Assembly (NCBI GenBank): GCA_041596415.1
Contig: JBFHIN010000001.1
Span: 1-24,229 of the forward strand
Source: Crocinitomicaceae bacterium
Lineage (GTDB): Bacteria > Bacteroidota > Bacteroidia > Flavobacteriales_D > Crocinitomicaceae
Direction of reading: 5' to 3'
DNA: 24,229 bases
Made by a program: the position numbers and the translations under genes. Below the pieces are notes generated by a model. That model searched no databases and was not told the origin of the DNA. It worked only from the letters and a program-made list of their open reading frames with translations. This document shows positions 1,589 through 5,011 of the stretch, one piece after another; position 1 is the first letter of the stretch, and every line of letters starts with the position of its first letter.

Positions 1589-2224
1589 TTACTTCACCTT
1601 ATTTTTAAACTTTGTCAACCCCTGAAACACCATATCCATCACTTGTTCAATAGGGAGTGCATTATTGGCTGATACTGTTGTTCCTCCTACATTTGTTTGG
1701 AAGCTGCCAATGCTCCTAAATCCTCTGGCTCTGGTTACTTTTCGATATTTGCAACGCTTATCAATACCGTACGCTTTCATTTTAACCTTCACGAATGGGT
1801 GAAGTCTTGAGTAGTTCGCGTTTGGTCCGCCAACACCAACTCCTTTGGTGAGTCCGACAGTGATCTTGAACTTTACGTAATACTCCATGTATTCTGTTTT
1901 CATGGCCTGACGTTTTGTGCCCGTTGGAAAACCTCCAACCTGTTCAGAAGTAGCAGCTGTTTTGCGTTCCACACCTTTAGAATTCATAGAATATACGTAC
2001 TGAGAAGGAACCATTAATTCTTGCTGAACAATGTTCTTTATTTCGTTTACTGTCGAATCGTACAAGCGGGTAGGAATGGACAAACGTCCTGAATTATTGT
2101 TAAATACGAATTGATTGGTCAGACGATTATCAATGAACCAACGAACTTTGTAAATACCGGCATTTTCTTGTGCAAAGGAGCACAGTTTCATAAAAAGAAA
2201 ACCAATAAATAAAAATCGCTTCAT
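1589..2224 (-). CDS. Exported basic hypothetical protein; likely start is the ATG at 2224 (MKRFLFIGF), not 2272
   Basis: Signal-peptide-like MKRFLFIGFLFMKLCSFA|QE. No family motif recognised. Confidence 0.7.
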   Translation of the reverse strand: MKRFLFIGFLFMKLCSFAQENAGIYKVRWFIDNRLTNQFVFNNNSGRLSIPTRLYDSTVNEIKNIVQQELMVPSQYVYSMNSKGVERKTAATSEQVGGFPTGTKRQAMKTEYMEYYVKFKITVGLTKGVGVGGPNANYSRLHPFVKVKMKAYGIDKRCKYRKVTRARGFRSIGSFQTNVGGTTVSANNALPIEQVMDMVFQGLTKFKNKVK

Positions 2225-2365
2225 ACGCTTATAAATTTGGGCGCAAGTTACAGAATTAAAAGGATACAACAATCCAAAGTAATTGTGTAATTCATCATGT
2301 AATAATGTGAAAAATTAAATGTGTGAAACTTACACAATAACTGATCATATAACTCGTTTGCAATG

Positions 2366-2470
2366 AAGTCATCAAGAAATTCCTTTAATGAAAGGGAATG
2401 CCAACCGACCCGGCAGGGCACGGTGGAAAAACGATGTGAGGCTCGCGCCTAAACAAATATGCGAACTCCG
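2366..2470 (+). ncRNA. SAM riboswitch aptamer, SAM-I/IV-variant-like (no P4; P5 hairpin 3' of P1)
   Basis: P1 CAUC(2370-73)/GAUG(2433-36). J1/2 AAGA. P2 AUUCCUUU/AAGGGAAU (2379-2399). P3 CCAACC(2401-06)/GGUGG(2422-26) with the AA/U internal loop. P5 AGGC-UCGC-GCCU (2439-2450). The element is a GC-rich island in an AT-rich leader. Confidence 0.85.
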
Positions 2471-2521
2471 TGATTTTATTCTTGATGGTGTATATGTTTA
2501 ACACTAAAAACTTCATACATC

Positions 2522-3202
2522 ATGAAAAAAAAGAAATTGAATTTTGTTTCATTAAAAGCTGTAAAGCGGTTTTTTGAAAAATTGTATCAGAGGCGAAATA
2601 CAACTGTTTCATTACCTCACTCAGAGAAGAATTTAGCTCCAGATGGTTCTTCAAAAGGCTCTCTTTTTAGTTCAGATTTCCCTCGGGAGGATGAAGTGGA
2701 TTTTTTGTATGACAACTGTGGTGGTTTATGTGGTTGTGGACCAAATAAATGCCGCTATGACGATTATTTTTTTGGTTTACACATGGCTCTAGATATCCAT
2801 GTTCAAAACATGAAAAATGCTAAAAAAGAGAAAGTAATTGATTACTTAACGTGCAATCAGATACAACTTTTGTATAAGAACGGAGAAGTTAACCAATTTT
2901 TAATAAAAACTGACCTAATCGAAAATAACTACGTGTCTTTAAATTCAACTCCATGTTTGGATCCTCTATTGCTTGTAGTCCGTCATGATAAATTACAAAC
3001 GCATATAGACGTTTCTAGTTTGGATCGATACTTAATGATTGGTTTTGACGAAAAAAGAGAGATCATCGGAGTTACTGTGTTGAATTCGAATGCTAATGGG
3101 TCGTTTTTTTTATTGACGCTGGCAAAATTTATCTTGATCATTTCGCAACGTGAATTGACTGAGTGGAATGGAATACTGAGCTTTAATGCGTTAACAAATT
3201 GA
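2522..3202 (+). CDS. Hypothetical protein with a Cys cluster (CGGLCGCGPNKC) and a possible divergent DUF192-like C-terminal domain
   Basis: 226-aa ORF placed between the riboswitch and a strong terminator. The C-terminal half follows the DUF192 pattern by eye (LLLVV..THIDV...YLMIGFDEKREIIGV...AKFILII). The function call is weak. Confidence 0.65.
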   Translation: MKKKKLNFVSLKAVKRFFEKLYQRRNTTVSLPHSEKNLAPDGSSKGSLFSSDFPREDEVDFLYDNCGGLCGCGPNKCRYDDYFFGLHMALDIHVQNMKNAKKEKVIDYLTCNQIQLLYKNGEVNQFLIKTDLIENNYVSLNSTPCLDPLLLVVRHDKLQTHIDVSSLDRYLMIGFDEKREIIGVTVLNSNANGSFFLLTLAKFILIISQRELTEWNGILSFNALTN

Positions 3203-3204
3203 TG

Positions 3205-3244
3205 AAAAAGGCTCCGAATTTACATTTGTAGGAGCCTTTTTTTA
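3205..3244. terminator. Bidirectional intrinsic terminator
   Basis: AAAAAGGCTCC(3205-15)...GGAGCCTTTTTTTT(3231-44) between convergent genes. Confidence 0.85.
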
Positions 3245-3424
3245 TGCTGATATGCACAGGTTACTTTCCTTGAACACAAAAAAAAAAATTGATGAGATAC
3301 CATTAGGTGTGAATTTAGTAGAAGAGAATCTTAGAATAAACGATTTCTAAATTACACATTCCATGAGCGACCCTTTAAAGTACTTCAAAAAGCATCAAAA
3401 GTATTGAAGAAATAGTTTTTCTTT

Positions 3425-5011
3425 TTATTTCAATTTTATTTCGGCTACAATTCTCAACTGTTCTTCTAAAATGTCTTTTAAATCTTCAATCGTCGTAAAT
3501 GGATTCATTAGTACAGTTCGGAACCAAGTGCGATAAAACTCGTTTTTACTACATTTAAGTTTAGTGTATGAAACAAAAGAATTACCCCTTGCAAATTGTT
3601 CCTTTTGAAGCGTTTCGTTGATCGAATTGATTTCCTCTTCTTCATGTAAAGTCAGGTTTTGCGCCAGAACTTTTCCTCGATATTTCTCTGGAATATACCT
3701 ATATAATAATATATTCAAGGTTGGAAATTTATAGATCTGAAATTCTTCATGGCTAGCTATGATATTATGGAAGGAAACACAACGTGCGATGTTGTCGTCC
3801 AAGACTTCTTCAAATCCTTTTTTACCCATTATGGCTAAGGTACCATGCAATGTCAATGCTGAAAAGTTACGTGTACCTTCAATGGTGTATCGCCCAATAT
3901 CAAAACTTCCTTTTCTTGCTTGATAGTGCGTGTTATTTTCTGAAGCTTTTGCTAAACACAGATCCTTGAAAATCACAAAACTCGATCCAATGGGCATATA
4001 GAGTTGTTTATGGCCACAAATAGTAACACTATCAGCTCGTTCAATACCTTTGAATTTTTGTTTAGACTGCTCACTAAGTAAAAAAGCACCTCCAAACGCA
4101 GCATCCGCATGAAAATGGATATTGTTTTGTTCAGCAATATCGGCTATGAGCTCTAGATTATTGATTTCTCCACTTTCTGTAGTACCAGCAACACCAACGA
4201 GTGCTACGATCAGAACATTTTTAGCCTTATAGTCATTGATCTTATCATTTATTCGTTTTTGAATTTCTGAATCAGTTAGATTTTCCCATTCAAAGAAATC
4301 AACGTTGTGTTTTCCAATTCCTATAATTTTAGCAGCTTTATTAAAACTGTAATGACAAAGTTTTGGCGCTATGATAACGGCTTTTTCATAACCCTTTGCA
4401 GTCAAAGCGTAATGTATACCTTGATTATTTACACCGTTTTTGTCATTTGCATCGAGTAAATTAGAAAGGGCATAACTCATTGCCGTGATATTCGACATAG
4501 TTCCACCATTTGTAACGACACCGAAAACCTTTTCAGGATCATTTATACCGTCGGTGTACACCTTTTCTTGATAATGAAATATTTCTTTGTGAAAAAACGC
4601 CAGTACTTCTCTTTCAATTTTACTACCAATTCCGGATGTTTCGATCTTAACCAGATTTTGATTGTAATTTATGGATAGATCATTCAAATGACTCACTAGG
4701 GGTGGGATAGGTCCGGTCATGTGACCTATGAATTTTTTGGAATATACATTTACAATATTGGGCTCTACGGTAGATGCAATGAAATTATTGTACGTATCAA
4801 AGGATAGGGTATACTTATCAAAAAGTAAATTTGATTCATGATAATTAGAATTGGTTGAAATACAATTTGTATTTACTCTTTCAAGAAGTTGATCATAATA
4901 GAAATCGTTTTCTTTTTGTTTTGAAAACAGGGAAGGAATTGGATTTCTTTCGACTTTAGGTTCTTCTTTTGTTTCCAATTCACATGAGTTTAGTGCTGCA
5001 ACATCAATCAT
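3425..5011 (-). CDS. panP: Group II PLP-dependent decarboxylase, PanP-like (pyridoxal-dependent aspartate 1-decarboxylase family)
   Basis: Motifs FIGHMT, NQNLVKIETS, NGGT, HADAAFGG, VTICGHKQLYMP (PLP lysine), RKGSFDIGRYTIEGTR and FRTVLMNPFTT match Vibrio-type PanP. The substrate is not proven. Confidence 0.75.
   Translation of the reverse strand: MIDVAALNSCELETKEEPKVERNPIPSLFSKQKENDFYYDQLLERVNTNCISTNSNYHESNLLFDKYTLSFDTYNNFIASTVEPNIVNVYSKKFIGHMTGPIPPLVSHLNDLSINYNQNLVKIETSGIGSKIEREVLAFFHKEIFHYQEKVYTDGINDPEKVFGVVTNGGTMSNITAMSYALSNLLDANDKNGVNNQGIHYALTAKGYEKAVIIAPKLCHYSFNKAAKIIGIGKHNVDFFEWENLTDSEIQKRINDKINDYKAKNVLIVALVGVAGTTESGEINNLELIADIAEQNNIHFHADAAFGGAFLLSEQSKQKFKGIERADSVTICGHKQLYMPIGSSFVIFKDLCLAKASENNTHYQARKGSFDIGRYTIEGTRNFSALTLHGTLAIMGKKGFEEVLDDNIARCVSFHNIIASHEEFQIYKFPTLNILLYRYIPEKYRGKVLAQNLTLHEEEEINSINETLQKEQFARGNSFVSYTKLKCSKNEFYRTWFRTVLMNPFTTIEDLKDILEEQLRIVAEIKLK

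What the first reader, a model, noticed from the sequence alone, without database searches (positions are those of the whole stretch)
2368..2524. Complete translational switch: anti-aptamer helix versus start-codon-sequestering helix
Seen: UUCUUGAUG (2479-87) is the perfect complement of CAUCAAGAA (2370-78), the SAM-binding P1/J1/2 strand, and the helix extends by two G-U pairs. The overlapping segment AUGGUGUAU (2485-93) can instead pair 9 of 9 (one G-U) with AUACAUCAU (2515-23), which contains the AU of the start codon at 2522. The two helices share 2485-2489 and are mutually exclusive. Inference: without SAM the anti-aptamer forms and the AUG is free (ON); with SAM the aptamer forms and the AUG is masked (OFF). 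There is no terminator in the leader and no Shine-Dalgarno, which fits direct start-codon occlusion in a Bacteroidota SD-independent leader.
Basis: partly seen in the sequence, partly recalled or inferred. Interest (0 to 1): 0.7.

Follow-up and report, generated by a model that had tools for sequence, protein, structure and literature searches.

The report
SAM riboswitch that hides start codon
A known type of SAM-sensing RNA (SAM-I/IV) sits before an unknown gene of a marine Bacteroidota bacterium. It most likely shuts off translation by moving one short strand from the sensor onto the start codon, a layout conserved in many relatives that lack Shine-Dalgarno sites.

Summary
Rfam places a SAM-I/IV aptamer at 2364-2466 (55 bits against a cut-off of 41.1). 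Strand 2479-2493 can pair with the P1 5' strand plus J1/2 (2368-2378). It can instead pair with 2515-2523, which holds the A and U of the AUG at 2522.

On a sequence-only MAFFT alignment of 24 Bacteroidota leaders, both helices covary about as well as the accepted P1 helix:
- Anti-P1: 85% of cells paired, 7 of 11 pairs with changes on both sides.
- Start-codon helix: 71% of cells paired, 7 of 9 pairs with changes on both sides.
- For both, 0 of 500 shuffles reached the covariation score, and controls with the partner slid by 1-3 columns scored far lower.

Two further leaders, found only through homology of the downstream protein, show the same layout. The leader has no terminator and no Shine-Dalgarno sequence. 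The start at 2522 is backed by N-terminal conservation.

Caveats:
- Only 5 nt are shared, so exclusivity is partial. In folding models the ligand-free ensemble splits those 5 nt about evenly between the two helices.
- SAM response is inferred, not tested, and so is the level of control (translation versus transcript).

The strand-swap logic is that of known translational riboswitches such as thiB and thiM. This is a phylum-adapted variant, not a new principle. The regulated 226-aa protein, and most other genes behind these switches, match no curated family.

The parts
2357..2360 (+). TTTG, the possible 3' end of a Bacteroidota -7 promoter box (TAnnTTTG type). It implies a transcript start near 2365-2368.
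   Evidence: Inferred. Full or near TAnnTTTG boxes lie at the same place just 5' of related aptamers. The window itself keeps only TTTG.
2364..2466 (+). SAM-I/IV riboswitch aptamer.
   Evidence: Rfam RF01725: 55.0 bits, gathering score 41.1, full-length match to model positions 1-99. It is the only copy found in the genome.
2368..2378 (+). P1 5' strand (2369/2370-2373) plus J1/2 (2374-2377). This is the 5' partner of the anti-P1 helix.
   Evidence: Rfam structure line. P1 covaries in relatives. The anti-P1 helix covaries too, including the J1/2 columns that are unpaired in the aptamer.
2433..2437 (+). P1 3' strand of the aptamer.
   Evidence: Rfam alignment. There are 4 canonical pairs plus a U-U, so P1 is weak.
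2479..2493 (+). Switch strand. Bases 2479-2489 pair with 2368-2378 (anti-P1). Bases 2485-2493 pair with 2515-2523 (start-codon helix). Bases 2485-2489 are shared.
   Evidence: Sequence, covariation of both helices, cognate versus non-cognate pairing test.
2496..2511 (+). Inner A/U-rich stem (2496-2499 with 2508-2511) and loop of the sequestering hairpin. It holds the TTTAA(C) motif recurrent in relatives.
   Evidence: Minimum-energy folds and the alignment consensus.
2515..2523 (+). 3' arm of the sequestering helix, covering -7 to +2 of the start codon.
   Evidence: Sequence. In the alignment the A and U of the ATG pair with the switch strand in 23 and 21 of 24 rows.
2522..3202 (+). Regulated ORF of 226 aa (P0001). 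It has an N-terminal Cys-cluster module followed by an all-beta C-terminal module.
   Evidence: ORF list and translation. No Pfam, NCBIfam or PADLOC family. N-terminal conservation. The C module is modelled at pLDDT above 90.
3207..3245 (.). Hairpin flanked by an A-run and a T-run: a likely two-way intrinsic terminator that closes a one-gene unit.
   Evidence: Read by eye. The simple scan missed it because its loop exceeds 8 nt.

Best explanation
This is a SAM-I/IV riboswitch with a translational OFF platform adapted to Shine-Dalgarno-less initiation.

The mRNA probably starts a few bases before P1. When SAM is scarce, the weak P1 (4 canonical pairs) loses to an 11-bp helix between the P1 5' strand plus J1/2 (2368-2378) and the switch strand (2479-2489). 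This breaks the binding pocket. It also takes 2485-2489 away from the start region, so C-A-U-G (2521-2524) is single-stranded and the 30S subunit can load.

When SAM binds, P1 and J1/2 are locked in the aptamer and the switch strand is released. Bases 2485-2493 then zip onto 2515-2523. The result is a two-tier hairpin that encloses -37 to +2, including the A-rich upstream tract and the A and U of the AUG, and initiation is blocked.

The design works because the start region copies the P1 5' strand (..CAUC.. against ..CAUG). One strand can therefore migrate between the two partners.

Shown here: the aptamer match, both helices and their covariation, the absence of a terminator and of an SD, and the start codon. 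Inferred: SAM binding, the direction of the switch, and translation as the regulated step.
For: - Aptamer: RF01725 at 55 bits.
- Geometry read from the sequence.
- Covariation on alignment A3, which was made without structure information (24 leaders):
  - Anti-P1: 85.1% of cells paired (slid controls 36-54%), covariation score 0.471 against a shuffled mean of 0.211 (0 of 500 shuffles as high), 7 of 11 pairs changed on both sides. These include J1/2 columns 16/157 and 17/156, which the aptamer's own P1 cannot explain.
  - Start-codon helix: 71.4% paired (slid 24-52%), score 0.361 against 0.191 (0 of 500), 7 of 9 pairs changed on both sides.
  - For scale, the accepted P1 helix scores 0.482.
- RNAalifold predicts the anti-P1 helix de novo.
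- Cognate strands pair better than non-cognate ones: -11.9 against -8.1 kcal/mol and -9.1 against -5.3 kcal/mol, with none of 20,000 permutations as low for either helix.
- Per leader, both helices beat shuffles in most cases. This includes L161 and L162, which were retrieved by protein homology alone and turned out to carry the aptamer 54-59 nt before the ATG.
- Folding of the window from a plausible 5' end: the start-codon helix has P about 0.95 with P1 enforced and about 0.47 for the shared part without constraint. The free-energy gap of about 5.5 kcal/mol is plausible for ligand plus tertiary contacts.
- No terminator in the leader, 1 of 20 ORFs with an SD-like motif, and A-rich -12/-11 positions.
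- In Flavobacterium johnsoniae, structure around the start codon tunes initiation in the absence of SD (PMC6847099).
Against: - Only 5 nt are shared. The minimum-energy fold of one fragment keeps a 6-bp anti-P1 together with the full 9-bp start-codon helix.
- Across 27 related leaders, the model opens the AUG on freeing the 5' strand in only 14.
- Even in the modelled ON state, a 6+4-bp hairpin remains at -34 to -2.
- The aptamer-to-ATG distance (55 nt) falls in the range that a Bacteroides TPP study associated with transcript-level control (10.1101/867226).
- The PK-2 pseudoknot of the class is weak in the window (about 3 bp by eye).
- The transcript 5' end is inferred, not measured.
Confidence: 0.74

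Rival explanations
1. The same two helices exist, but the regulated step is transcript abundance. When SAM is bound, the untranslated or structured leader is subject to Rho-dependent termination or faster decay, and blocked initiation is secondary or absent.
For: In Bacteroides, TPP riboswitches lying about 50 nt from the start codon changed mRNA levels. Those directly at the start codon changed translation only (10.1101/867226). Here the spacing is 55 nt, and 51-60 nt in most relatives.
Against: There is no intrinsic terminator in the leader. The 3' arm is locked in register to the A and U of the ATG in 21-23 of 24 leaders. Control of transcript elongation or decay alone would not require that. 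The two explanations can also coexist.
Confidence: 0.15
2. The hairpin over the start codon is a constitutive feature that dampens translation. The anti-P1 helix only tunes aptamer folding or ligand sensitivity, and does not expose the AUG (a hybrid state in which both helices coexist).
For: The minimum-energy fold contains both helices. In 13 of 27 leaders the model shows no opening of the AUG.
Against: The overlap of the two footprints on one strand, and its register, are conserved. For the window, the modelled accessible fraction rises about tenfold without P1. A dampener that never opens would make the aptamer pointless for this single-gene unit.
Confidence: 0.08
3. The complementarities are chance matches in an A/T-rich leader.
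For: The window has 35% G+C. Short A/U-rich helices are common.
Against: About 7e-4 of the 9-mer is expected in the linker. Covariation in 24 leaders has 0 of 500 shuffles as high. The layout was recovered in leaders found through protein homology.
Confidence: 0.02

Closest known systems
SAM-I/IV riboswitch (Rfam RF01725; 'SAM-I-IV-variant' of Weinberg et al. 2010, PMC2864571)
   Same: The aptamer matches over its full length and above the cut-off. The conserved core and helices P1, P2, P3 and the 3' hairpin are present and covary in relatives.
   Different: The Rfam model stops at 2466 and does not describe the expression platform. In the papers I could read, I found no description of this platform or of its tie to the start codon in Bacteroidota.
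E. coli thiB/thiM TPP translational riboswitches (sequestering stem versus antisequestering stem; PMC10578472)
   Same: The logic is the same. A strand downstream of the aptamer pairs either with part of P1 (ON) or with the initiation region (OFF), and the competition runs by strand displacement.
   Different: Those switches mask a Shine-Dalgarno sequence together with the start codon and sense TPP. Here there is no SD, and the masked element is the AUG with its A-rich upstream tract. The start region also copies the sequence of the P1 5' strand.
SAM-II long-loop riboswitch before metK in a flavobacterium
   Same: Same phylum, same ligand, and a proposed strand swap that buries the start codon in the absence of an SD.
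   Different: The aptamer class is different (H-type pseudoknot) and the gene is different (metK). I did not re-examine that locus.
SAM-I/IV leaders of Bacteroides, Prevotella and Muribaculaceae (loci L066, L025, L049, L070)
   Same: Same aptamer class and same phylum.
   Different: In those leaders the ATG lies at or within about 10 nt of the aptamer's 3' tail. The folded aptamer can occlude it directly, and no separate switch strand or hairpin is needed.

Membership tests
SAM-I/IV riboswitch (RF01725) | Covariance-model score at or above the curated gathering score | tested here: met
   55.0 bits against 41.1, model positions 1-99 of 99.
SAM-I/IV riboswitch (RF01725) | Conserved core nucleotides and helices P1, P2, P3 and the 3' hairpin, with covariation | tested here: met
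   The core blocks are invariant in all 24 leaders. P1 is 93% paired with score 0.482. P2, P3 and the 3' hairpin are predicted with compensatory changes.
SAM-I/IV riboswitch (RF01725) | PK-2 pseudoknot between the P3 loop and the 3' tail | tested here: inconclusive
   By eye, only about 3 complementary bases in the window (loop GCA with tail UGC near 2460-2462). Some relatives have longer matches. I made no formal count.
SAM-I/IV riboswitch (RF01725) | Binds S-adenosylmethionine | not testable with these tools
   This needs in-line probing, ITC or similar.
Translational OFF riboswitch with sequestering and antisequestering stems | One strand shared by two alternative helices, one of which competes with P1 | tested here: met
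   Bases 2485-2489 are shared. The anti-P1 helix covers the P1 5' strand and J1/2.
Translational OFF riboswitch with sequestering and antisequestering stems | The sequestering helix covers the initiation signal | tested here: met
   The A and U of the ATG are paired in 23 and 21 of 24 leaders. There is no SD to cover.
Translational OFF riboswitch with sequestering and antisequestering stems | Both helices maintained by compensatory changes | tested here: met
Translational OFF riboswitch with sequestering and antisequestering stems | Ligand-dependent change in translation | not testable with these tools
   Folding models only.
Transcription-attenuating riboswitch | Intrinsic terminator (G+C-rich hairpin plus U-run) between the aptamer and the gene | tested here: not met
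   None on the + strand at 2150-3400. The leader hairpin is followed by an A-run.

The most novel reading that the evidence does not exclude
The platform is a phylum-wide module with a locked register, in which the start codon region has evolved to copy the P1 5' strand. It would be the general way that SAM-I/IV riboswitches control translation without a Shine-Dalgarno sequence.

In Bacteroidota it also gates a largely unknown regulon. The regulon includes three small orphan protein modules: a Cys cluster, a helical module with a Gly-Trp ... Arg-Gly-Ile-Asp (GW...RGID) motif, and an all-beta module. These are fused in varying orders. Other members are FGase-family enzymes and an AAA_5 ATPase. 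Together they would be switched on when SAM runs low, pointing to an undescribed SAM- or methionine-linked pathway or a response to SAM depletion.
Probability: 0.35. Interest if true: 0.7.

Novelty: new variant of a known kind. Interest (0 to 1): 0.5.

Why it matters
Bacteroidota initiate translation without Shine-Dalgarno pairing, so the textbook riboswitch mechanism of hiding the SD cannot apply to them. This leader and its roughly 25 relatives give a concrete, mutation-ready model of the alternative. One strand migrates between the ligand pocket and the start codon itself, and the covariation for both helices is as strong as for the aptamer's own P1.

It is a good test case for how RNA structure around the AUG sets initiation in this phylum. 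It also flags a set of orphan genes whose only functional clue is that they are repressed by SAM.

Tried and rejected
- RNA evidence: no RNA holder is listed for the stretch, only marine and sediment metagenome DNA runs. No reads were laid.
- Pattern scan of genome contigs with the aptamer core: most of the 120 stretches were chance matches in unrelated phyla. An nhmmer profile picked out about 25 real aptamers.
- Word-index protein search: found only the protein itself.
- ESM Atlas: no usable hit.
- Pfam, NCBIfam and PADLOC: no hit for P0001 or for most other riboswitch-linked ORFs.
- A 6674-aa hit (P0004) to the C module is weak, comes from a repetitive D/G/S/T-rich protein and has no Pfam match. 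I treat it as compositional.
- A 7-bp pairing of 2363-2369 with 2510-2516 dominates the fold of fragment 2360-2560. It is not seen in relatives and probably lies upstream of the transcript start, so I dropped it from the model.
- Thermodynamic 'opening' as a general proof: the result was mixed, 14 of 27 leaders, so I do not use it as main evidence.
- The structural paper on the SAM-I/IV aptamer (Trausch et al. 2014) could not be fetched. What I say about it is from memory.
- Full-text searches found no description of this platform.

Full report
**What is there**

Rfam finds one family in the window: a SAM-I/IV aptamer at 2364-2466 on the + strand. It scores 55.0 bits against a gathering score of 41.1 and matches the model over its full length. 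It is the only copy found in this 2.4-Mb, 501-contig genome. The ORF 2522-3202 (226 aa) begins 55 nt after the aptamer. The next gene is on the other strand. A hairpin flanked by an A-run and a T-run at 3207-3245 closes the unit. The riboswitch therefore controls a single gene.

**The observation**

- Bases 2479-2487 are the exact reverse complement of 2370-2378, and two G-U pairs extend this to 11 bp (2368-2378 with 2479-2489).
- According to the Rfam structure line, 2369/2370-2373 is the P1 5' strand and 2374-2377 is J1/2. This helix would destroy the ligand pocket.
- Bases 2485-2493 pair 9 of 9 with 2515-2523, which includes A2522 and U2523 of the start codon.
- The 9-mer is expected about 7e-4 times in a linker of this size.
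- Both duplexes beat shuffles of the switch region (p=0.04 and p=0.003).
- The start site is the most structured of the 20 long ORFs of the window.

**Comparative test**

Family-level and class-level searches with RF01725 gave 15 and 16 further aptamers, in 10 of 151 and 13 of 151 genomes. A pattern scan plus an nhmmer profile added about 25 more in named Bacteroidota contigs. These come from Flavobacteriaceae, Vicingaceae, Sphingobacterium, Cyclobacteriaceae, Bacteroidales and others. In most, the ATG lies 51-60 nt after the aptamer.

I aligned 24 leaders with MAFFT, using no structure information (A3). I left out L012, L055 and L072, whose platforms looked different, and L006, which has no ATG. 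On this alignment:

| Helix | Cells paired | Slid controls | Covariation score | Shuffled mean | Shuffles as high | Pairs changed on both sides |
|---|---|---|---|---|---|---|
| Anti-P1 | 85.1% | 36-54% | 0.471 | 0.211 | 0 of 500 | 7 of 11 |
| Start-codon helix | 71.4% | 24-52% | 0.361 | 0.191 | 0 of 500 | 7 of 9 |
| Aptamer P1 | 93.3% | 16-51% | 0.482 | 0.237 | 0 of 500 | 3 of 5 |

- The J1/2 columns, which are unpaired in the aptamer, also covary with the switch strand. The switch strand is therefore not merely a copy of the P1 3' strand.
- The A and U of the ATG are paired in 23 and 21 of 24 rows.
- RNAalifold, given only the alignment, returns the anti-P1 helix enclosing P2, P3 and the 3' hairpin.
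- In a cross-pairing test, cognate strands pair better than non-cognate ones for both helices, and no permutation out of 20,000 was as low.
- Two metagenomic contigs fetched only because they encode homologues of the protein carry a SAM-I/IV aptamer 54 and 59 nt before the ATG. They have both helices in the same arrangement.

Relatedness among the rows inflates shuffle statistics. The slid-partner controls and the diversity of the helix sequences argue against a purely phylogenetic artefact.

**Energetics**

Full or near TAnnTTTG boxes just 5' of related aptamers suggest that the transcript starts near 2365-2368 (inferred). I therefore folded from 2366 or 2368.
- Without constraint, the anti-P1 core has P=0.86. 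The 5 shared nucleotides split about 0.45/0.47 between the two helices. The minimum-energy structure leaves 2521-2524 unpaired.
- With P1 enforced, the start-codon helix has P about 0.95.
- The ensemble gap of about 5.5 kcal/mol would have to be paid by SAM binding and tertiary contacts.

The modelled accessible fraction of the AUG falls roughly tenfold. The switch is a branch migration over 5 nt, not a strict either/or. One fragment even folds with both helices present. In the wider set, the model opens the AUG in only 14 of 27 leaders. I treat the energetics as compatible with the model, not as proof.

**No terminator, no SD, and the start codon**

- No terminator-like site lies on the + strand of the leader. 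An A-run follows the hairpin.
- Only 1 of 20 long ORFs of the window has an SD-like motif, and positions -12/-11 are A-rich. This is the pattern reported for Flavobacterium johnsoniae, where structure from -20 to +20 tunes initiation (PMC6847099).
- The start at 2522 is supported by conservation of M1, K3, N7, F8 and K12, and of the Cys pattern, in two homologues that also follow SAM-I/IV aptamers. The internal Met at about 2810 lies at the junction of two protein modules.

**Mechanism and rivals**

The most likely mechanism is a SAM-OFF translational switch, as set out under Best explanation. The logic matches the sequestering and antisequestering stems of the E. coli thiB and thiM TPP riboswitches (PMC10578472). 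Three things differ here:
- the AUG is masked rather than an SD;
- the start region copies the P1 5' strand;
- the register is conserved across a phylum.

The main rival is control at the transcript level. In Bacteroides, TPP riboswitches about 50 nt from the start changed mRNA levels (10.1101/867226). This cannot be excluded and may coexist with translational control.

Other Bacteroidota variants exist:
- a helix over -15 to -7 instead of the AUG (L118, L152);
- nested designs before metK (L146, L150);
- direct occlusion of the ATG by the aptamer tail in Bacteroides, Prevotella and Muribaculaceae.

**The regulated gene**

P0001 matches no Pfam, NCBIfam or PADLOC family. An exhaustive HMMER search found only 20 clusters. 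The alignment shows the protein to be modular:
- a Cys-cluster module and an all-beta module of about 110 aa make up P0001;
- relatives also carry a third, helical module;
- the modules are fused in different orders or encoded separately.

AlphaFold models the beta module at pLDDT above 90. The best structural matches are two structural-genomics proteins of unknown function, 3pjy and 3m7a (E 7e-5, TM 0.57 by target). Of 30 ORFs checked behind related aptamers or in their operons, 4 match a Pfam family above its cut-off: FGase twice, AAA_5 once, and an IS200-like transposase once. metK and metH also occur.

**Verdict**

This is a real and well-supported expression platform of a known riboswitch class. 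The principle is known. The Shine-Dalgarno-free, AUG-mimicking and phylum-conserved form is a variant that I did not find described in the papers I could search.

Noticed in passing
window 2522-3202; A4; loci L014, L015, L002, L050, L034, L007, L161, L162: The regulated protein is a fusion of two orphan modules: a Cys cluster of about 100 aa and an all-beta domain of about 110 aa. In relatives these modules, and a third helical module with a GW...RGID motif, occur alone or fused in other orders. Nearly always they sit behind SAM-I/IV aptamers.
   Followed up: partly
loci L002-L015, L034, L050, L059, L076, L088, L100, L118, L137, L138, L147, L152, L159: Most first genes behind Bacteroidota SAM-I/IV aptamers have no Pfam family (19 of the 20). 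Recurrent exceptions are FGase-family enzymes (L005; second gene in L003), an AAA_5 ATPase (L149), metK and metH. The regulon looks largely uncharacterised.
   Followed up: partly
L078 390-1260; L157 with L144 (G269:C87:4111-4355); L034; G145:C2:337424-339770; G094:C4:231930-234007: SAM-I/IV aptamers come in clusters. Tandem aptamers about 150-180 nt apart lie before a small ORF or metK. Elsewhere, two to four riboswitch-led genes lie within a few kb, sometimes divergently.
   Followed up: no
L006 (G059:C51:5061-5163 and downstream): This is a degenerate copy. The aptamer and switch strand are intact, but the start region carries a short insertion and ATC in place of ATG. An unrelated ORF follows about 100 nt later.
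   Followed up: no
window 2363-2369 and 2510-2516: There is a perfect 7-bp complementarity between the bases just 5' of P1 and the bases just 5' of the start-codon arm. It dominates folds that begin at 2360. It is not seen in relatives and may lie outside the transcript.
   Followed up: partly
window 3207-3245: This is a G+C-rich hairpin with a 15-nt loop, an A-run before it and a T-run after it. It looks like a two-way terminator between the convergent ORF 2522-3202 and the PLP-dependent decarboxylase gene (3425-5011, minus strand).
   Followed up: no
L160 1-166: A homologue (P0003) is preceded not by SAM-I/IV but by a G+C-rich leader of unknown kind. Even so, its start region still reads like a P1 5' strand (ACAUCAAGAACAUG). 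The contig ends 163 nt upstream of the gene.
   Followed up: no
alignment A3 columns about 168-199: The loop of the sequestering hairpin keeps a TTTAA(C) ... TTAAA motif in most leaders. This forms an inner A/U stem. Whether it has a role beyond pairing, for example in ribosome or S1 contact, is open.
   Followed up: no
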